Shown here: one piece after another, positions 2,622 through 37,014 of the stretch | How the letters are laid out: each line of letters opens with the position of its first letter | How positions within the stretch are numbered: the stretch's first letter is position 1 | Origin: Propionibacteriales bacterium | Lineage (GTDB): Bacteria > Actinomycetota > Actinomycetes > Propionibacteriales > Nocardioidaceae | Reading direction: 5' to 3' | Length of the DNA stretch: 38,828 bases | Assembly (NCBI GenBank): GCA_038200025.1 | Contig: JBBPYJ010000197.1 | Span: 1-38,828 of the forward strand | Translations under genes and position numbers: made by a program | The notes under the pieces: model-generated | Database searches by the model: none | Told to the model about the DNA's origin: nothing | What the model saw: only the letters and a program-made list of their open reading frames with translations

Positions 2622-3338
2622 ATGCTCAAGCGACTTGCGCGTTCCGCGCGTACCCCGGCCATGGTTGCTACGACCCTCCTCTGCCTCTCGCTGACGGCCT
2701 GCGGCAGTGAGGAAGACGTTGCGGACCTCGCCGGTGACACACCGACCAGCGAGCCAACCGACTCCGAGGCCGCGACTGCCGCTGCGGCGGCGCAGTGCGA
2801 CTATCCCACCGACGGTCAGCCGGCCGCCAAGGAAGTTGACCCGCCGCTGGCCGAGGCCGCCGACGAGCAGGCCACCGTTACCCTGACCACCTCCGCGGGC
2901 GACCTCACCGCCGACCTGGATGGTGCTAAGGCCCCGTGCACGGTCAACAGCTTCTTGTCGCTGGCCAAACAGGGGTACTTCGGCAACACGACCTGTCACC
3001 GGCTCACCACCGATGGCATCTTCGTCCTGCAGTGCGGAGACCCCACCGGCACCGGCCAGGGCGGACCGGGCTACTCGTTTGCCGACGAGCTCAGCGGCTC
3101 GGAGACCTACGGCCCGGGCACGCTGGCGATGGCCAATGCCGGGCCGAACACGAACGGCTCGCAATTCTTCCTGGTGTACGACGAGTCGCCGCTGCCCCCG
3201 AGCTACACCGTCTTCGGCGAGATGGACGCCGAAAGCCTCGCGACCTTGAAGGGCATCGGATCCGAGGGCACCACCGACGGCGGACCTGACGGAGCCCCCA
3301 AGAAGCCTGTCGACATTGAGAGCGTGTCCATCTCCTGA
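2622..3338 (+). CDS. Cyclophilin-type peptidyl-prolyl cis-trans isomerase, predicted lipoprotein
   Basis: Signal peptide with lipobox LTAC; motifs CHRL, QCGDPTGTGQGGPGY, LAMANAGPNTNGSQFF and YTVFG. Confidence 0.93.
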   Translation: MLKRLARSARTPAMVATTLLCLSLTACGSEEDVADLAGDTPTSEPTDSEAATAAAAAQCDYPTDGQPAAKEVDPPLAEAADEQATVTLTTSAGDLTADLDGAKAPCTVNSFLSLAKQGYFGNTTCHRLTTDGIFVLQCGDPTGTGQGGPGYSFADELSGSETYGPGTLAMANAGPNTNGSQFFLVYDESPLPPSYTVFGEMDAESLATLKGIGSEGTTDGGPDGAPKKPVDIESVSIS

Positions 3339-3370
3339 GCCCCGAGCACCGAATCCGCCCCGACCGTGGG

Positions 3371-3429
3371 TAGTCCCTAGCGTTTGGCACGATTTTCCCG
3401 CTCGGAATGGTGCCGTTTGCTAGGGACTA
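3371..3429. terminator. Long hairpin (REP-like or bidirectional terminator) between convergent genes
   Basis: TAGTCCCTAGC (3371-3381) and GCTAGGGACTA (3419-3429) form a perfect 11-bp stem, with inner GGCAC/GTGCC and TTCC/GGAA pairs. Confidence 0.6.
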
Positions 3430-3494
3430 TCAGATCTGGGGCCGGTCCGGGGCCTAGGCTGGGGGCTGGGGGCTGGGGGCTGGCTGAGCGGCCG

Positions 3495-3995
3495 TCAGTC
3501 CGTGCTGCAGTCGACCTCAGCTTCGGCAGCTGGTTCGGCCTCGGGATACGTCACCTCGGCGCCGACCTGGACGGTTCGCGCAACCGTACAGAGTCGGTCG
3601 CGCACCATCGCCAGAGCGCGGGGAAGGACTTCGCGGGCTTTGTCGCCGTCCTCGCCCTCAGGGAAGGTCAGGTCGAAGGACACCCGCAGGTCGACCATCC
3701 GGCTGCCGTGCTCGTCGCGCACCTTGTGGCCCTCGGCGCGGACGTCGAAGCCGAGGGTGGGCGCACGCTTGCCGGTGATCGACTCGGCATCGATAGCGCT
3801 GCAGCCGGCGATGGCTGCCAGCAGCAGCTCGACCGGACTGAAGTCCGGATCATCGCCAGGGCCGATCGGCACGAGTCCCCCGCGACCGTTGAGCGCCTTG
3901 TAGCGACCTTCACCGATGCGGACGAGATCGATGGCCCGCAGGGTGGACCCGTCGGACTGGGAATCGGACTGCAAGTCGGAATGGGGCTGCGTCAT
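3495..3995 (-). CDS. OsmC/Ohr family protein
   Basis: FSPVELLLAAIAGCSAID...DRLCTVARTV with the two conserved cysteines. Confidence 0.88.
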   Translation of the reverse strand: MTQPHSDLQSDSQSDGSTLRAIDLVRIGEGRYKALNGRGGLVPIGPGDDPDFSPVELLLAAIAGCSAIDAESITGKRAPTLGFDVRAEGHKVRDEHGSRMVDLRVSFDLTFPEGEDGDKAREVLPRALAMVRDRLCTVARTVQVGAEVTYPEAEPAAEAEVDCSTD

Positions 3996-23173: not shown

Positions 23174-23333
23174 CTCCCCCTCTGTCACCGCTCACGGCCT
23201 TCGCCGCCGACGGCTCCACAGGTGCCTGACCCGCGCAGTCCGTGCGCCTGAGAGGTTCCGGGGAGGATTTGCCCCTTCGGCGCTCCGAGCCCTCTCAGCG
23301 AGAAACTCAGAGACTCTCCCACGCGGGATCATC
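23174..23333 (-). ncRNA. Glycine riboswitch (one full aptamer plus a reduced second stem)
   Basis: The minus strand reads GGGAGAG...CGCCGAAGGGGCAAATCCTCCCCGGAACCTCTCAGG...GACAGAGGGGGAG in the gcvP leader. Confidence 0.9.
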
Positions 23334-29070: not shown

Positions 29071-30150
29071 TCAGTCTAGAGACGAGGTCTGGGACGAGGT
29101 TTGGGTCGGCTCGTCCTGGTGCGCGGCGTCCCTGATCTCTCCGACCAGTTCCTCGATCACGTCCTCCAGGGTGATCAGTCCCACCACCTGCCCGCTGTCG
29201 TCGACCACGCGCGCCATATGGGCGCCGCGCCGTTGCAGGGTCTCCAGCGCGTCGTGCAGTGGATCGGTGGTGCGCACCCCGGCCAGTGGTCTGATCGACT
29301 TGTCGTCGATGACCTGGACGCGGCGGGACTGCTCGGTTTCCAAGACGTCCTTGATGTGCAGGTAGCCCATCAGGGAGCCGTCCTCGTTGGTGACCGGGAA
29401 GCGGCTGAAGCCGGTCGCCGCGCAGAGCGACTCCAGGTCCGAGGCCGTCGCACCACGCGAGATGGTGGTCAGCGAGGCAGTCGGCAAGACGACCGCGCTG
29501 ACCTGCTTGTCGGCGAAGCCGAGTGCTCCGGTCAGCCGGCCGTACTCCTCCTCTTCCAGCAGACCTTCGCCGCGGGACTCCTCCACCAGGGCTGCCACCT
29601 CTTCGCGGGTGTACGTCGAGCTCACCTCGCTCTGCAGCTCGACCCCGCCCAGCGCGAGCAGCCGGCGGGCGATCGCGTTCAGGACCACCACCACCGGTCG
29701 CAGCACCGTCACGAAGCCCCAGACCACCGGGGCGAGCACGACCACCACGCGCTCGGGCCCGGCCAGGGAGATGTTCTTCGGCACCATCTCGCCCAGCACC
29801 ACGTGCAGGAACACCACGATCATCAGCGCGATCGCGAAGGCGATCGGGTGCAGCAGCGCATCGGGCAGCTGCGCGACGTGCAGCGCCGGCTCGATCAGCG
29901 CGGCCAGGGCCGGTTCGGCGATCGCACCCAGTCCCAGGCTGCAGATGGTGATGCCAAGTTGGTTGACGCCGATCACCAAGGCGATGTTCTCCATCGCCTT
30001 GATGGTGATCTTGGCCATCCGCGAGCCGGCCTGGGCCAGTGGCTCGATCTGACTGCGCCGGGCCGAGACCAGGGCGAACTCGGCGCCGACGAAGAACGCA
30101 TTCAGGCCCAGCAGCAATGCAGCGAGCAGCAGCGCGGGAAGGGTGCTCAC
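29071..30150 (-). CDS. Hemolysin/CNNM family protein (DUF21 plus CBS pair)
   Basis: FFVGAEFALVS, QLGIT, GEMVPKN, GFSRFPV and ITLEDVIEELVGEI. Confidence 0.92.
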   Translation of the reverse strand: MSTLPALLLAALLLGLNAFFVGAEFALVSARRSQIEPLAQAGSRMAKITIKAMENIALVIGVNQLGITICSLGLGAIAEPALAALIEPALHVAQLPDALLHPIAFAIALMIVVFLHVVLGEMVPKNISLAGPERVVVVLAPVVWGFVTVLRPVVVVLNAIARRLLALGGVELQSEVSSTYTREEVAALVEESRGEGLLEEEEYGRLTGALGFADKQVSAVVLPTASLTTISRGATASDLESLCAATGFSRFPVTNEDGSLMGYLHIKDVLETEQSRRVQVIDDKSIRPLAGVRTTDPLHDALETLQRRGAHMARVVDDSGQVVGLITLEDVIEELVGEIRDAAHQDEPTQTSSQTSSLD

Positions 30151-31532
30151 CGTCGCTCCCCCTCGTCTCCCGCGGTCTGCTCGGAGTCCTCGCGCACCGT
30201 GACCGTCACCCGATCCACCCGAAGCCCGTCCATCCGGTCCACGCGCATCCGGGCCCAGCGGCGTACGGCGCCACCGTCGGTCGCCTCGCGCTCCTCGCTG
30301 CTGACCGGCAGCTCCACGTCCACTTCATCGCCGACCTGCGGGATCCGGCCGAGCCGTTGCACGATCAGCCCGGCGACCGTGTCGTAGTCGTCGTCAGCGG
30401 GCAGCTCGATCCCGCTGACGTCCTCGGCCTCGTCGGGTCGCAGTAGGCCCGACAGCGACCAGCCGCCGTCGCGCCGCTGCCAGGCCCTGGAGCCTAGGCG
30501 GTCGTGCTCGTCGGAGATGTCGCCGACGATCTCCTCGACGACGTCCTCCAAGGTGACGATGCCGGCGTGCCCGCCGTACTCGTCCAAGACCACCGCCATC
30601 TGGAAGCCATCAGCACGCAGCAGACCCATCAGCGGGTCCAGGCGCAGGGAGTCCGGCACCACGATGGGTCTGACCATGATGTGCTTGATCCGGGTGGTCG
30701 CCCGCTCACCCACCGGCAGTGCCACCGCGTGCTTGACGTGCACGGTCCCCACGACCGTGTCGTCGATGTCGAGGACCGGGAAGCGCGAGTGCCCGGTGCT
30801 GCGGGCAGTCTCGATCACCGCGATCGCCCGATCGGTGGCCTCCAGGGTCGTCGTGCGCACGCGCGGAGTCATGATCTCGCTGGCGGTGCGGTTGCCGAAC
30901 TCGACCGAGCGCTCCATCAGCTCGGCGGTGTCGGCGTCCAGGGTGCCCTGCTCACCGGACCGGGCGATCAGGCTGGCCAACTCGGTGGAGCTGCGGGCCG
31001 AGCGCAGCTCTTCCTGCGGCTCGATGCCCAGACGTCGCACCAGCGCGTTCGCCGACCCGTTGAGGAACCGGATCGGCAGCGCCATCAAGGTGGTGAAGGT
31101 GCGCTGGAAGCGCTGGGTGGCGATCGCGGTCTGCATCGGCAGGGCGATGGCCAGGTTCTTGGGCACCAACTCGCCGAAGATGACCGTCAGCCCGGTGCTG
31201 ATCGTCAGCCCCAGCACGACCGCGAGGGGGGACACCAGGTCCTCGGGCGTCCCGAGAGCGCTCAGCGGTCCGTCGATCAAGGTGGCGATGGCGGGCTCGG
31301 CCAGGAAGCCGATGGCCAGGTTTGTCACGGTGATCCCGACCTGCGCCCCGGAAAGCTGGGTCGACAGCGCGCGCAGCGCGGTCTGGACTCCCACCGCGCC
31401 GGGCTCACCTGCCTCGACGGCCCTGTCGACCCGGTTGCGGTCCACGGTCACGAAGGCGAATTCGGCGGCGACGAACATCCCCGAGGCCACGATCAGCAGC
31501 AGCGAGATGACGAGCAGGAGCGTAGCGGTCAT
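30147..31532 (-). CDS. Hemolysin/CNNM family protein (DUF21, CBS pair, CorC-HlyC domain)
   Basis: FVAAEFAF, LSGAQVGIT, GELVPKN, GHSRFPV, DEYGG, EIVGDISDEHD and YDTVAGL. Confidence 0.93.
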   Translation of the reverse strand: MTATLLLVISLLLIVASGMFVAAEFAFVTVDRNRVDRAVEAGEPGAVGVQTALRALSTQLSGAQVGITVTNLAIGFLAEPAIATLIDGPLSALGTPEDLVSPLAVVLGLTISTGLTVIFGELVPKNLAIALPMQTAIATQRFQRTFTTLMALPIRFLNGSANALVRRLGIEPQEELRSARSSTELASLIARSGEQGTLDADTAELMERSVEFGNRTASEIMTPRVRTTTLEATDRAIAVIETARSTGHSRFPVLDIDDTVVGTVHVKHAVALPVGERATTRIKHIMVRPIVVPDSLRLDPLMGLLRADGFQMAVVLDEYGGHAGIVTLEDVVEEIVGDISDEHDRLGSRAWQRRDGGWSLSGLLRPDEAEDVSGIELPADDDYDTVAGLIVQRLGRIPQVGDEVDVELPVSSEEREATDGGAVRRWARMRVDRMDGLRVDRVTVTVREDSEQTAGDEGERR

Positions 31533-32692: not shown

Positions 32693-32918
32693 GAGCTTGT
32701 CAAGTTTTCTGGGTAGTGATCGGGTCTTGATTGGTTGATTACTTTGTTACAGGTGGCGGTTGATGCGGTCGGGGTAGACGACCGCGAGTTGGGCCAGGGC
32801 TTGTTTCCAGTTCGTGACGGCTTGGCCCTCGACGAGCCGCCCGGGGGCCCTGCGCTCGGACGAGGGCTTGCCCTTCTCCTTGGCTCGTTCGCGGGCCCTC
32901 TTGTCCTCGATGTTGCAG
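32693..32918 (-). mobile_element. IS256-family remnant: transposase C-terminus plus right terminal IR
   Basis: The minus strand encodes CNIEDKRARERAKEKGKP..RLVEGQAVTNWKQALAQLAVVYPDRINRHL* (stop 32747-32749), followed by the IS256-like end CCCAGAAAACTTGACAAGCTC. Confidence 0.82.
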
Positions 32919-32921
32919 TTA

Positions 32922-32995
32922 ACGGGCCTATCTCACCGAACCGGCGCGGACCGATCGTATTGACGATGCAACAGATGCGGATACTCCCCACCGCC
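32922..32995 (-). ncRNA. Truncated yybP-ykoY (Mn2+) riboswitch aptamer
   Basis: The minus strand reads GCGGTGGGGAGTATCC-GCATCTGTTGCATCGTCAATACGATCGG...TTCGGTGAGATAGG. L1 (GGGGAGUA) and L3 (CGUCAAUAC) are present; the 3' GAGACC/P1 strand is replaced by the IS256 remnant. Confidence 0.65.
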
Positions 32996-33088
32996 AGGGA
33001 ACTAACCAGATCCCGAACCCTGGCGCCAGTTCGCGCTTGCCGCGCCCCGTGGGACTCACCTGGGCTTACCCCTCTACGCTCACGAGAC

Positions 33089-34240
33089 GTGAGCACCTTC
33101 GATATTGTCCGGGTCCTGCTGGGGCTGCTTATCCTCGTGGGCGGCGGCGAATTCCTGGTTCGTGGCGCTTCAGCGCTGGCCGCTCGGTGGGGTCTTAGCC
33201 CTCTCGTTGTGGGTCTGACAGTCGTCGCGATCGGGACCTCGGCGCCGGAGTTCGCGGTGACGGTTCAAGCAGTTCTGCGCGATCAAACCGACCTTGCGGT
33301 TGGCAATGTGGTCGGGTCCAACATTGTCAACGTCCTGCTTATCCTCGGTGTGGCCGCGTTGATCCTGCCGCTGGCGGTCAAGGAGCAACTCGTCCGGGTC
33401 GATGTGCCGGTGATGATCGTGCTGTCTGTTTTGCTCCTCCTCTTTGCCTTCGACGGGAACGTCTCGTTCGTGGATGCACTGGTGCTGCTCGCCCTATGGG
33501 TAACCCACACCACGGTGATCGTCGTGATGAGTCGCCGCGAAACCGACCGGGCGCGGCCAGGTGGCCAGACAGTCGAAACCACAGACGGGTCCGCGGAGGC
33601 CAGCGCGGAGCAAATATCGGCCCCAGGTCCTGGGGTGACGATGTCCGTGGTGCTTATTGCGGCCGGTATCGCCCTGCTGGTCGCGGGAGCCAACCTTTTG
33701 GTGACCGGTGCGGTAAATATCGCATCCTCCCTGGGGCTCAGCGGCCTGGTAATCGGGCTCACTGTCGTCGCCCTCGGTACGTCGTTGCCTGAACTGGTCA
33801 CCTCCCTGGTTGCTGCCATCCGAGGCGAGCGGGACATCGCCATCGGAAACGTCGTGGGGAGCTCCATTGCCAACATCGGGCTCGTTCTGGTTGTCCCAGC
33901 GCTGTTCGCCGGTGACGGGATCCCCGTCGCGCCCGCCGCGATCGCGCTCGACATTCCACTCATGGTGGCCACCGCTGTTGTGGTCGCGCCCATCATCTTC
34001 ACCGGTTTCACCGTCGAACGATGGGAAGGCGCCCTCTTCATCGCGCTCTACGTCGCCTACTTGACTTTCCTGGTACTAGACGCCAGCGGGCACCAAGCCC
34101 TGACCGGGTTCACCCGAACGATGGTGTATTTCGTCTTGCCCCTCGTTGTCGCCGCCCTCATCGCCGGCGTTGTCTACGAGTTCAAGCAACGGGCTGTCCG
34201 GAACAGTGCCGCAGCCAAACCCAAGGAGAACTCCGCGTAG
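33089..34240 (+). CDS. Calcium/sodium antiporter (CaCA, YrbG-like)
   Basis: Two alpha repeats, VAIGTSAPE..GNVVGSNIVN and VALGTSLPE..GNVVGSSIAN, and many TM helices. The true start is likely GTG 33089 rather than 32735. Confidence 0.93.
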   Translation: MSTFDIVRVLLGLLILVGGGEFLVRGASALAARWGLSPLVVGLTVVAIGTSAPEFAVTVQAVLRDQTDLAVGNVVGSNIVNVLLILGVAALILPLAVKEQLVRVDVPVMIVLSVLLLLFAFDGNVSFVDALVLLALWVTHTTVIVVMSRRETDRARPGGQTVETTDGSAEASAEQISAPGPGVTMSVVLIAAGIALLVAGANLLVTGAVNIASSLGLSGLVIGLTVVALGTSLPELVTSLVAAIRGERDIAIGNVVGSSIANIGLVLVVPALFAGDGIPVAPAAIALDIPLMVATAVVVAPIIFTGFTVERWEGALFIALYVAYLTFLVLDASGHQALTGFTRTMVYFVLPLVVAALIAGVVYEFKQRAVRNSAAAKPKENSA

Positions 34241-34282: not shown

Positions 34283-34800
34283 TCACATCAACGGCGCGAT
34301 CTTTGCCGCTGTGAGCGCGACGGCCAGCACGATTGTCCCGACTCGATGGACCGCGAAGATCGCCGACCAGTCACCCGACTCCTCGCCCCGGATGGCGCTG
34401 ACCGCGATATCCCCCGCAAGGTAGGCAGCGAAGAGCGCGGCGGTAGCCCACGCGAGCACAATCGCCACGTCGGGGGCACCATAAGCGTGCAGGGCCACGA
34501 TCAGGGTCAACGCGAAAGCGCCTTCGACTACTACGCCACCGGCGATATAGGCCCATGCGGAGGGGTATCGCCTCGATGCCGCCCGAAGACCTTCGCGTAT
34601 TCGCCGTCCATCGGCGAAACCCACCGGTCTGCGTCGCGCAGGGCCACATGCGGCGGACTCCCGCCGAGATCGACCCGGATTGAATCAGCCGGTACTCCAA
34701 GGAGCCGGCCCATACCGTAGTGGCCGTACTCGTGAACAACGATTAGCAGCAAGACGAACCCCACCCCACCAGCCAAGTCCACCGCGATCGTGCTCACCAC
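34283..34800 (-). pseudogene. Membrane zinc metallopeptidase (M50-like), frameshifted
   Basis: TM plus VVHEYGH in ORF 34531-34800; the hydrophobic C-terminal half (YIAGG..., SGD) is in another frame (34283-34624), with the shift at about 34570. Confidence 0.6.
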
Positions 34801-34959
34801 GTAATTCTATCGCCGGATCCGCACTGGTTCCCGCGCCCCAGGTGGTCGCAACAAGAGATCACAGACCATGGTCCTCTGCAGGGAATCAGGAGGCAGGCGT
34901 GCCCTAGCCGATCCACCTGTTGACGCGCGAACCCTGGTTCGCGTGTCCTTCGGGCCCCC

Positions 34960-35090
34960 GACGGGGGGAGTATCTCCAATGGCTCGCATCGTCAGCACGG
35001 CCCTGTAGGGGGGCCCGGTGTGAGCGGCCCAACTCGGGTCGAGAGAGACCTCGTTGCCGAATGTGGCCCTGGTGCCACCGCAACGAGGAG
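34960..35090 (+). ncRNA. yybP-ykoY (Mn2+-sensing) riboswitch with translational expression platform
   Basis: P1 GACGGGG/CCTCGTT; L1 GGAGTA...AGA; TCTC/GAGA; P3 GCTCGCATC/GGTGTGAGC with L3 GTCAGCAC and GGCCC/GGGCC; P4 GGCCC/GGGTC. The alternative stem CCTCGTTGC/GCAACGAGG covers part of the GAGGAG RBS. Confidence 0.85.
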
Positions 35091-35101
35091 CACTGATCGC
35101 T

Positions 35102-36178
35102 ATGACAACCTTCCGACCCAACCCCCGCCACGAACTGACCTCGGCAAGCGTGCTGACACTCCAGTCGATGCAGGCCTATCCCAGCCTCTCGATCCTGGTT
35201 AACGCTACCCCTGGGCCCAGACCCGAACCGGAGACCATCAGACGCCTTCGTCGCCTGCGCGACGGGGTCGCCGAACGGCTAGATCGCGAGAACTTCTTTT
35301 CCACGACCTCACTGATGGCCAAGGTCGATGACCTGATTGATCAGGCTTGCTTGGCGCCGTGCGGCCAAGCCATAGCGTTGTATGCCAGCGAAGCCCACGA
35401 GCAACTGGTGGTCCTGTCGGTCGAGGTCACCGAGCGAGCCGTCGTGGACCCCACCTTCGCCACCCGCGACCTGGTGCGAGCCCTGCACCGGACCCCTCGC
35501 CAGGTCGTCCTAGTCCTCGCCGTCGGCGAAGCACGCCTTTTCGAAGGCGTCGGCTCGCGGCTCAACCCCGCACCGGGGTCGAAGTTCCCCCGCAGCGCCA
35601 CTGCGGCTAGCCGCGCTGGCTCTACGAACAACGAGGCCTTCCTGGTCGACGTCGACACTGCCCTGGGCTCCTACCTGCGCATTCACCCGGCTCCTTTGGT
35701 GGTGGTAGGCGCAGAACCGACCCTCTCGACGTTCTGTGGGCTGTCCAAGAATCTGGGCCGTTTGGCCGGGAAAGTTGTCGGTAACCATGTCCACGTTCGT
35801 CTTGACGTGCTCAGCGGTCGCATCGCCCCGCGTATCGAGGACTATCTACGCTCCCGGCAAGAAGAAGCCCTGGAGCTCCTCGGCACCCGGACCGGTCAAG
35901 GTCGAGCTCGGATCGGGATCGACGCTGCCTGGTTCGCAGCACAGCGGGAGCGTCCCGAGATGCTCGCGGTAGAAACCGACTTCTTCTACCCAGCCCGTGT
36001 CAGTGCGGACGGCGACTACCTCGATCCAGCCCAAGACGTAGAGGATCCAGAAGTCACCGACGACTGCGTCGACGAGATCATCGAACGAGTCCTGGACCGC
36101 GGCGGATGGGTCGCCCTGGTCGACCCCGGATCGATCCCCACCGGCGGACGCATCGCGCTGACCTCCAAGGACGCCTGA
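35102..36178 (+). CDS. baeRF3-family protein (bacterial aeRF1/Pelota-like factor)
   Basis: YPSLSIL, AIALYAS, VVDPTFATRDLVRAL, ARLFEG, PLVVVG, G.VVGN and DD.VDEIIERVLDRGGWV; RBS GAGGAG; no GGQ. Confidence 0.8.
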   Translation: MTTFRPNPRHELTSASVLTLQSMQAYPSLSILVNATPGPRPEPETIRRLRRLRDGVAERLDRENFFSTTSLMAKVDDLIDQACLAPCGQAIALYASEAHEQLVVLSVEVTERAVVDPTFATRDLVRALHRTPRQVVLVLAVGEARLFEGVGSRLNPAPGSKFPRSATAASRAGSTNNEAFLVDVDTALGSYLRIHPAPLVVVGAEPTLSTFCGLSKNLGRLAGKVVGNHVHVRLDVLSGRIAPRIEDYLRSRQEEALELLGTRTGQGRARIGIDAAWFAAQRERPEMLAVETDFFYPARVSADGDYLDPAQDVEDPEVTDDCVDEIIERVLDRGGWVALVDPGSIPTGGRIALTSKDA

Positions 36179-36373: not shown

Positions 36374-37014
36374 GTGCGTACGCATGCGCTCTGGAACCCG
36401 TTCGGAATCTCGTCGATGGATGAGATCAACGCAGCGCGAGTGAAGCTGGGTGCTTGGGCGCCGACGCCCGTCGAGGCTGTTTCGCCAGATGCCACGTGGG
36501 CAGACGCGTACGCAGTCGCCAGGCAACGGATCTGCGCGGCCCTGGGTGAGCGCGTGCTCGGTATGAATCACGTCGGTTCGACAGCAGTTGCTGGGCTGTG
36601 GGCAAAGCCGATGATCGACATCGACCTCACCGTGGCCAACTCCGCCGATGGAGCCGCCTGGCTCCCCGACCTCGAAGCCGCCGGCTTTGCGCTGCGGGTA
36701 CGTGAGCCCGAAGCGGAGGAGCGCCGTCTGGTCCGAGGCCAGGCACCGACCAGCAACGTGCACATCTTCTCGGTCGGAGCGCGTGAGCCTCAGCGACACG
36801 TGCTTTTTCGCGACTGGCTGCGCACGCGCCCTGACGATCGCGACCAGTACTCCGATCAAGCGTGATCTGGCCGCGGACGGGTTTACCGACGCGATGCTGC
36901 TACAACAACGCCAACGCGGGGTTTGTCTACGACCTCTACGAGAGGGCCTTCACCGGCGATCCAGAACACCAGCACGATCCACACCCGCGGTCCGACGCCG
37001 CCCCAAACCGTTAA
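36374..37014 (+). pseudogene. GrpB family nucleotidyltransferase-like protein, frameshifted
   Basis: HVGSTAVAGLWAKPMIDIDL, NVHIF and RHVLFRDWLR..PDDRDQY; the C-terminus (KRDLA.., YNN..GFVYDLYERAF) continues in other frames after shifts at about 36855 and 36900. Confidence 0.8.

What the first reader, a model, noticed from the sequence alone, without database searches (positions are those of the whole stretch)
34960..36178. Mn2+-sensing yybP-ykoY riboswitch controls a baeRF3 (release-factor/Balon-like) gene, not a transporter
Seen in sequence: a complete yybP-ykoY-type aptamer (P1 34960-34966/35049-35055, GGAGUA L1, GUCAGCAC L3) directly ahead of an intact 358-aa baeRF3-type ORF with no GGQ motif. 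Established: this riboswitch class normally controls Mn exporters or membrane proteins (MntP, TerC/Alx, P-type ATPases), and bacterial aeRF1-like proteins include the ribosome hibernation factor Balon. Inference: Mn excess (or alkaline stress) may induce a ribosome-binding hibernation or rescue factor, a metal-to-translation link I do not recognise as described. The gene is intact while both neighbours are frameshifted, which suggests selection.
Basis: partly seen in the sequence, partly recalled or inferred. Interest (0 to 1): 0.85.

Follow-up and report, generated by a model that had tools for sequence, protein, structure and literature searches.

The report
Manganese riboswitch gating a Balon-like factor
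A manganese-type RNA switch sits directly in front of a gene related to the ribosome-hibernation factor Balon, and this pairing recurs in dozens of actinobacteria, so excess manganese or alkaline stress likely turns on a protein that is predicted to park ribosomes, not only a metal exporter.

Summary
34959-35056 is a yybP-ykoY aptamer of the three-way-junction (alx-like) form. It scores below Rfam's gathering cut-off (27.6 of 45 bits), but scores 54 bits on a model built only from terC-leading aptamers, and its homologues covary strongly. Its P1 3' strand can instead pair with the Shine-Dalgarno of the 358-aa baeRF3 gene, whose closest solved structure is Balon. Of 121 distinct close homologues, 97 lie behind such a switch: 43 directly, 2 behind a terC remnant, 31 behind terC and 21 behind other small genes. 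In 13 loci terC has its own second switch, so the gene is a real regulon member rather than a leftover. Three caveats apply. Balon's HP motif is replaced and the protein is below the NCBIfam cut-off. Metal response and ribosome binding are untested. A 2013 RegPrecise supplement very probably already lists the pairing as the anonymous locus Mvan_0329. I found no paper that makes the Balon link. The scan has noted other non-transporter targets of this switch on other DNA, but not this one.

The parts
34920..34949 (+). Predicted sigma-A promoter: -35 TTGACG 34920-25 and -10 at 34944-49. The window reads TGTCCT; near-identical strains read TATCCT.
   Evidence: runs X2 and X3 read A at 34945, X1 and X4 read G
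34928..34941 (.). Operator-like palindrome CGAA-N6-TTCG between -35 and -10; binding protein inferred to be a small winged-HTH that travels with the module
   Evidence: 57 of 92 distinct switch promoters versus 0.10 per kb background; the HTH is in 52 of 130 loci
34959..35056 (+). yybP-ykoY (Mn2+) riboswitch aptamer, three-way-junction form without P2; L3 UCAGCAC with the invariant A at 34994
35049..35090 (+). Expression platform: the P1 3' strand CCUCGUUGC (35049-57) can pair with GCAACGAGG (35080-88) and bury the Shine-Dalgarno GAGGAG (35085-90)
   Evidence: SD unpaired probability 0.03 when free versus 0.46 with P1 forced; cognate versus permuted duplexes
35102..36178 (+). baeRF3 / Balon-like gene, 358 aa; no GGQ or NIKS; C-terminal beta-hairpin kept; HP motif replaced; lasso loop short
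32930..32997 (-). Second, broken yybP-ykoY aptamer: L1, P3 and L3 are intact, and the 3' part is replaced by an IS256-type transposase remnant (32750-32929)
   Evidence: 35 bits with R1; remnant 68-77% identical to plasmid IS256/transposase sequences
32735..34240 (+). Na+/Ca2+ exchanger (PF01699); the ORF is given from its first possible start. RegPrecise lists COG0530 among yybP-ykoY targets (that COG0530 is this antiporter family is recalled).
34283..34800 (-). Frameshifted M50-like zinc peptidase pseudogene (HEYGH)
36374..37012 (+). Frameshifted GrpB pseudogene (3' end approximate)

Best explanation
This is a yybP-ykoY riboswitch directly upstream of a Balon-like baeRF3 gene, predicted to act as a translational ON switch, so that high Mn2+ (likely sensitised by alkaline pH) would produce a protein that likely binds the ribosomal A site and holds ribosomes idle. 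Mechanism: without metal, the 3' strand of P1 pairs with the Shine-Dalgarno (9 bp) and translation is off. Mn2+ docking of L1 on L3 stabilises P1 and frees the ribosome-binding site. The gene is part of a sporadic, mobile actinobacterial Mn/alkali-stress module (terC/Alx, a small winged-HTH with a palindromic operator, and sometimes carbonic anhydrase, a small unannotated protein or a P-type ATPase). In this module it is controlled by its own switch or by translational coupling to riboswitch-terC. The likely benefit is that ribosomes and peptidyl-tRNA are protected while TerC exports metal. SHOWN: aptamer structure and covariation, anti-SD complementarity, fold, conserved linkage and purifying selection. 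INFERRED: ligand, direction of switching in vivo, pH sensitivity, ribosome binding and benefit.
For: A CM from terC-leading aptamers scores the element 54 bits, about the same as the genome's own terC aptamer at 52.7. In 38 directly upstream aptamers, 89.4% of cells pair, 16 of 24 pairs covary on both sides, and covariation is 0.434 versus at most 0.154 for slid controls. The L3 adenosine is present in all 89 distinct regex-found aptamers, but the regex requires it. Anti-SD duplex: cognate mean -14.3 versus permuted -11.2 kcal/mol, 0 of 10000 permutations as low; SD accessibility rises by more than 0.1 in 25 of 45 leaders and falls in 4. Census: 97 of 121 clade proteins lie behind a switch versus 5 of 27 distant ones, and 13 loci have a separate switch for terC. 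M. austroafricanum DSM 44191 has 4 switches: terC, a second terC, UPF0016 and baeRF3. The window and L081 share 82% in the aptamer and 77% in the platform, versus 48-54% in flanks and dS 0.94. The best structural matches are Balon (8rdw, E 7.7e-26) and Msmeg1130 (E 5.5e-19), ahead of aRF1/eRF1. PMC10901736 (passages and sections 10-11 read) shows that the divergent homologues Msmeg1130 and Rv2629 also bind the A site and inhibit translation. PMC12153347 (passages) and bioRxiv 10.64898/2026.02.18.706685 (abstract, discussion) describe the P2-less aptamer with L3 starting in U as the pH-coupled alx type.
Against: Nothing here was measured. The HP decoding-centre motif is replaced by T-[TR]-P-[GA]-x-R in the clade, and the lasso loop is about 10 residues shorter. 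NF052287 gives 178 bits against a cut-off of 330. With P1 forced, the fold is 11 kcal/mol less stable in the nearest-neighbour model and the SD is only partly freed. Start sites were picked automatically, some wrongly, windows overlap in short leaders, and kin are not independent. L3 (UCAGCAC) differs from the alx consensus UCAUUAC, so pH coupling is not assured. terC remnants in L033 and L118 show that some direct copies arise by deletion. 15 of 121 clade loci have no switch, and 5 of the 21 'via other' calls rest on weak CM hits (23-29 bits). This copy has a -10 variant (G34945) and an 11-nt SD-to-ATG spacing, so it may be poorly expressed.
Confidence: 0.58

Rival explanations
1. Regulation is real, but the protein is repurposed. 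It no longer hibernates bulk ribosomes; it works with TerC (for example clearing ribosomes stalled during membrane insertion or secretion under Mn stress), or it has a non-ribosomal role.
For: HP motif lost and lasso loop shortened across the clade. terC lies within the fetched DNA in 58 of 130 loci, with stop/start overlap in 19 of 26. One continuous TerC-baeRF3 ORF exists in L026.
Against: 32 of 43 direct loci have no terC nearby. The L026 fusion keeps the internal SD and ATG and looks like a frameshift in the variable TerC tail. The three-domain fold, the FATRDL core and the beta-hairpin are kept. Msmeg1130 and Rv2629 also differ from Balon in sequence yet bind the A site (PMC10901736 passages).
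Confidence: 0.2
2. Passenger: the switch exists for terC, and the direct arrangement is a by-product of repeated terC deletion in a decaying mobile island, so control of the baeRF3 gene is not adaptive.
For: terC N-terminal remnants between switch and gene in L033 and L118. Direct rows nest inside terC-operon clades. The window region is decayed: two pseudogenes, a broken second aptamer, an IS256 remnant and a -10 variant. Earlier scan note e1-6658600 reports such a case for another gene (not checked here).
Against: 13 loci carry two switches, one for terC and one for the baeRF3 unit. A mycobacterial-type clade has 17 of 18 rows direct. Aptamer and platform are conserved far above flanks at dS 0.94. 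dN/dS is 0.07-0.40 in 10 of 10 pairs. The genome's own terC has its own switch.
Confidence: 0.1
3. The physiological signal is mainly alkaline pH or Ca2+, not Mn2+ excess as such.
For: alx-like architecture. Neighbours include carbonic anhydrase (9 of 130 loci), NhaA (L081), a Na/Ca exchanger (window) and P-type ATPases (L138, L145, L196). PMC11672702 (passages) notes that the S. pneumoniae switch also responds to Ca2+.
Against: The Mn-coordinating adenosine is kept. PMC12153347 (passages) shows that the alx pH response itself needs Mn binding, so the two signals may not be separable.
Confidence: 0.12

Closest known systems
yybP-ykoY Mn2+ riboswitch (Rfam RF00080), especially the three-way-junction E. 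coli alx switch before terC/alx
   Same: L1 GGAGUA/GAGA, P1, P1.1, P3, P4, L3 beginning UCA with the invariant A, no P2, and P1 competing with the ribosome-binding site
   Different: The target is a cytoplasmic aeRF1-fold protein, not an exporter. L3 is UCAGCAC rather than UCAUUAC. It scores below Rfam gathering, as do the actinobacterial terC-leading copies.
Balon (P. urativorans AOC03_06830 family, NF052287; PDB 8RD8/8RDV/8RDW) and Msmeg1130/Rv2629
   Same: Three-domain aeRF1 fold (Foldseek E 7.7e-26, TM about 0.63), no GGQ or NIKS, N-domain loop of the same length, C-terminal beta-hairpin, shared FATRDL core
   Different: 24% identity; HP motif replaced; lasso loop shorter; below the NCBIfam cut-off. 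It neighbours terC and a Mn riboswitch instead of RaiA, Hsp20 or OsmC.
RegPrecise yybP-ykoY regulon entry Mvan_0329 (M. vanbaalenii PYR-1; PMC3766115 supplements 1 and 5)
   Same: Very probably the same pairing. PYR-1 encodes a 379-aa member (ABM11177.1, 47% identical to the window protein) of the cluster of the L071 protein, and the related M. austroafricanum genome has exactly terC, a second terC, UPF0016 and baeRF3 behind its four switches, matching 'COG2119; ykoY; ykoY2; Mvan_0329'.
   Different: It is listed only as an unnamed 'miscellaneous' locus in one genome, with no family, function or breadth given. The locus tag itself was not verified by any search.

Membership tests
yybP-ykoY riboswitch (RF00080) | Rfam gathering score (45 bits) | tested here: not met
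   27.6 bits, E 6.9e-6; terC-leading actinobacterial copies also fail
yybP-ykoY riboswitch (RF00080) | L1 purine loop and L3 loop with the invariant Mn-binding adenosine | tested here: met
   GGAGUA/GAGA and UCAGCAC, A34994; invariant in alignment A2
yybP-ykoY riboswitch (RF00080) | Covarying P1, P1.1, P3, P4 architecture | tested here: met
   16 of 24 pairs with double changes; slid controls far lower
yybP-ykoY riboswitch (RF00080) | Four-way junction with P2 | tested here: not met
   5-nt linker instead of P2; the known alx member also lacks P2 (PMC12153347 passage)
yybP-ykoY riboswitch (RF00080) | Expression platform mutually exclusive with P1 | tested here: met
   9-bp anti-SD stem uses the P1 3' strand; computational only
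yybP-ykoY riboswitch (RF00080) | Mn2+ binding and Mn-dependent gene activation | not testable with these tools
   needs probing or a reporter
baeRF family 3 (PF18845) | Pfam gathering score | tested here: met
   71.8 bits versus 31.5
Balon ribosome hibernation factors | aeRF1-like three-domain fold, closer to Balon than to aRF1/Pelota | tested here: met
   AlphaFold model pLDDT 87.7; Foldseek ranks 1-5 are Balon and Msmeg1130
Balon ribosome hibernation factors | No GGQ and no NIKS | tested here: met
Balon ribosome hibernation factors | HP motif in the N-domain loop contacting the decoding centre | tested here: not met
   loop length kept, but it reads TPGPR in place of HRxHP
Balon ribosome hibernation factors | C-terminal beta-hairpin insertion (EF-Tu site) | tested here: met
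   strands 298-300 and 307-309 in the model, aligned to the Balon insert
Balon ribosome hibernation factors | Lasso loop and bL27 trap | tested here: inconclusive
   middle-domain loop about 10 residues shorter; trap residues are not given in the text read
Balon ribosome hibernation factors | NCBIfam NF052287 equivalog cut-off (330 bits) | tested here: not met
   178 bits; four other clade members 185-192 or lower
Balon ribosome hibernation factors | A-site binding and translation inhibition | not testable with these tools
   needs pelleting, in vitro translation or cryo-EM

The most novel reading that the evidence does not exclude
A distinct Balon subfamily with a rewired decoding-centre loop is a dedicated metal/alkali-triggered ribosome hibernation factor. 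An RNA metal sensor switches on translational dormancy directly, in parallel with TerC export, which gives a defined inducing signal for a bacterial aeRF1-type factor that does not involve starvation.
Probability: 0.5. Interest if true: 0.85.

Novelty: new variant of a known kind. Interest (0 to 1): 0.68.

Why it matters
Little is known about what triggers Balon-type hibernation factors, and Mn riboswitches are taken to drive exporters. A conserved, translationally gated link would tie metal and pH sensing straight to ribosome shutdown. It would also name a condition (Mn2+, alkali) and culturable hosts (for example Mycolicibacterium austroafricanum DSM 44191, M. hodleri, Lentzea) in which an uncharacterised Balon subfamily can be tested. 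The survey also shows that Rfam's gathering cut-off misses the actinobacterial three-way form, so this regulon is largely invisible in standard annotation.

Tried and rejected
1. Rfam at gathering found nothing in the window or in 18 loci. I rejected this as evidence of absence, because terC-leading copies also fail.
2. The folding z-score of the leader was uninformative.
3. First clustering of all neighbour ORFs was dominated by spurious GC-rich frames. It was redone with codon-scored genes.
4. The spacer palindrome resembles the actinobacterial LexA box (recalled). I set that aside because the six central bases vary freely and the site tracks the module: it is absent before the housekeeping terC and UPF0016 switches of DSM 44191. 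The binding protein remains unproven, and no clear copy of the HTH was found in G000 (one weak hit; genome 69% complete).
5. Search for fused forms found none among 7991 candidates of 724-2065 aa. Lengths 628-723, which include the 702-aa L026 ORF, were not covered.
6. No RNA holder was listed among the public runs, so expression is untested.
7. The small proteins between switch and gene have no Pfam or NCBIfam family, and the Atlas look-up returned nothing. Their resemblance to universal stress proteins is by eye only.
8. No complex prediction was sent: PMC10901736 reports that the Balon-EF-Tu interface is too small to be stable off the ribosome.
9. A survey paper on Mn exporters, recalled as listing riboswitch-associated genes, was not held.
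10. One paper search (baeRF or TerC) was swamped by telomerase papers.

Full report
Observation. Rfam finds RF00080 at 34958-35076 only below gathering (27.6 bits against 45, E 6.9e-6). The same blindness applies to 18 homologous loci that include terC-leading aptamers. I therefore built a covariance model from 27 terC-leading aptamers only. It scores the window element 54 bits (E 1.8e-10), about equal to the aptamer before this genome's own terC on contig C153 (52.7 bits). The element has P1, L1, P1.1, P3, L3 (UCAGCAC), P3b and P4, but no P2. In 38 aptamers lying directly before homologous genes, 89.4% of cells pair and 16 of 24 pairs change on both sides; slid controls give covariation of at most 0.154 versus 0.434 (the structure came from the same alignment, which favours it). 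PMC12153347 (passages) describes the P2-less, L3-starts-with-U form as the alx type. bioRxiv 10.64898/2026.02.18.706685 (abstract and discussion) ties that form to alkaline sensitisation. Our L3 is similar but not identical.

Expression platform. Unconstrained, the P1 3' strand pairs with GCAACGAGG and the Shine-Dalgarno is closed (mean unpaired probability 0.03). With P1 forced it rises to 0.46, at a cost of 11 kcal/mol that metal-driven docking would have to pay. Over 45 distinct direct leaders, accessibility rises by more than 0.1 in 25 and falls in 4. Cognate P1-strand/SD duplexes average -14.3 kcal/mol against -11.2 for permuted partners (0 of 10000). Starts were chosen automatically, some wrongly, short leaders make the two windows overlap, and kin are not independent, so this is supportive rather than a probability.

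Protein. The 358-aa product is baeRF3 (71.8 bits). Its only significant PDB sequence hit is Balon (E 1.5e-13). The AlphaFold model (pLDDT 87.7) matches Balon and Msmeg1130 before any aRF1 or Pelota. GGQ and NIKS are absent and the beta-hairpin is kept. The HP loop reads TPGPR and the lasso loop is short, and NF052287 gives 178 of 330 bits. It is therefore a Balon-like subfamily, not a filed member. dN/dS is 0.07-0.40 in 10 of 10 pairs. All four laid runs read T at 35503, giving the near-invariant His134 where the window has Gln.

Distribution. 162 loci were held. 14 were dropped as short, reversed or duplicate, leaving 148 proteins. Of the 121 at 40% identity or more (the window included), 43 have the switch directly upstream, 2 have it behind a terC remnant, 31 behind terC, 21 behind other small genes (5 of these on weak hits), 15 have none, and 9 have too little upstream DNA. 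Of 27 more distant proteins, 5 have one. 32 of the 43 direct loci hold no terC within the fetched DNA (up to 4 kb per side, often less). In 13 loci terC has its own separate switch. Behind terC, the gene overlaps the terC stop as ATGA or GTGA in 19 of 26 examined (of 31). Direct copies occur in Nocardioides, Mycolicibacterium, Lentzea, Pseudonocardia, Nakamurella and Jiangellales records. On the tree the regex-based 'direct' label needs 16 changes, so the module is rearranged often; origin by terC loss is visible in L033 and L118. The subfamily is sporadic. 1 of 60 relatives had any match (about 33-35% identity, no switch). In 400 phylum genomes, 37 had a distant match, with at most 33% identity among the 29 loci fetched; 1 of these 29 (1.5-kb flanks) had switch-terC-baeRF3. 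A Pseudonocardia plasmid carries switch, small gene and baeRF3 with carbonic anhydrase, an HTH and a P-type ATPase.

Local state. Both neighbours are frameshifted, also in the laid runs. A second aptamer at 32997-32930 is cut by an IS256 remnant. The -10 reads TGTCCT here and in two runs of one study, but TATCCT in runs of two other studies. This strain's copy may therefore be under-expressed, while aptamer and platform stay 82% and 77% identical to L081, against 48-54% in the flanks.

Mechanism. The most likely reading is a translational ON switch that induces an A-site-binding ribosome-parking protein alongside TerC under Mn excess, probably sharpened by alkaline pH. The rationale is inference: PMC10901736 (section 10) says Balon keeps the peptidyl-transferase centre inert, and the bioRxiv discussion notes that Mn hydroxide promotes RNA cleavage at high pH. 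Rivals are a TerC-linked repurposed role, a passenger, or pH/Ca2+ as the main signal.

Prior art. Searches: yybP-ykoY + release factor gave 2 papers with unrelated titles (listing only). Balon + hibernation + riboswitch gave 0. yybP-ykoY + hibernation gave 2 reviews; I read passages of one (PMC11672702, first 300,000 characters held, no 'hibernation' or 'TerC' there) and saw only the listing of the other. Manganese + ribosome hibernation + Balon gave 1 zinc review (listing only). Searches added no such link in their listings. The Balon paper has no 'manganese', 'riboswitch' or 'TerC' in its text or in the searchable supplements (one file unreadable, and its homologue datasets may not be held). 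The same holds for the main text of PMC6514570 (supplement not checked) and bioRxiv 2025.11.04.686544. However, PMC3766115 supplements 1 and 5 list 'COG2119; ykoY; ykoY2; Mvan_0329' as yybP-ykoY targets in M. vanbaalenii PYR-1. PYR-1 encodes a member of the L071 protein's cluster, and M. austroafricanum has exactly four switches, before terC, a second terC, UPF0016 and baeRF3. By elimination Mvan_0329 is very probably this gene. The pairing was thus likely catalogued once, anonymously; its breadth and the Balon reading I did not find in print. Subscription papers were not searchable.

Verdict. A real, conserved, new variant of a known kind. The regulatory link is about 85% likely and a Balon-like ribosome role about 65% likely. 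Interest 0.68.

Noticed in passing
window 32750-32997 (-): A second yybP-ykoY aptamer, pointing away from the Na/Ca exchanger, is cut after P3 by an IS256-type transposase remnant; its original target is gone.
   Followed up: partly
window 34928-34941; 57 of 92 switch promoters: Operator-like palindrome (C/T)GAA-N6-TTC(G/A) between -35 and -10; a roughly 100-aa winged-HTH is in 52 of 130 loci and is a candidate repressor, which would give a second layer of control.
   Followed up: partly
L047, L057, L102, L116, L024, L060-L077, L196: Small (130-190 aa) unannotated proteins sit between the switch (or promoter) and baeRF3; they look USP-like by eye and have no Pfam or NCBIfam hit.
   Followed up: partly
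L020, L039, L047, L052, L057, L058, L067, L102: Carbonic anhydrase directly follows the baeRF3 gene; in several of these loci a second switch and terC come next.
   Followed up: no
L026:2987-5092: Continuous 702-aa TerC-baeRF3 ORF; it keeps the internal SD and ATG, so it is probably a frameshift rather than a selected fusion.
   Followed up: partly
L036:3071-3526, L059:3169-3624: A GreA/GreB C-terminal-domain protein lies between terC and baeRF3 in the same switch-led operon.
   Followed up: no
L138, L145: Switch, P-type cation ATPase, small gene, then a more distant baeRF3: the link also occurs with a different exporter.
   Followed up: no
L034:1182-2348 and 2777-3802: Two baeRF3 paralogues in one switch-terC operon.
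   Followed up: no
window 23226-23331 (-): Glycine riboswitch aptamer, 58 bits.
   Followed up: no
window 29071-31532 (-): Tandem CNNM/HlyC-CorC CBS-domain genes about 1.4 kb downstream of the broken second aptamer, on the same strand.
   Followed up: no
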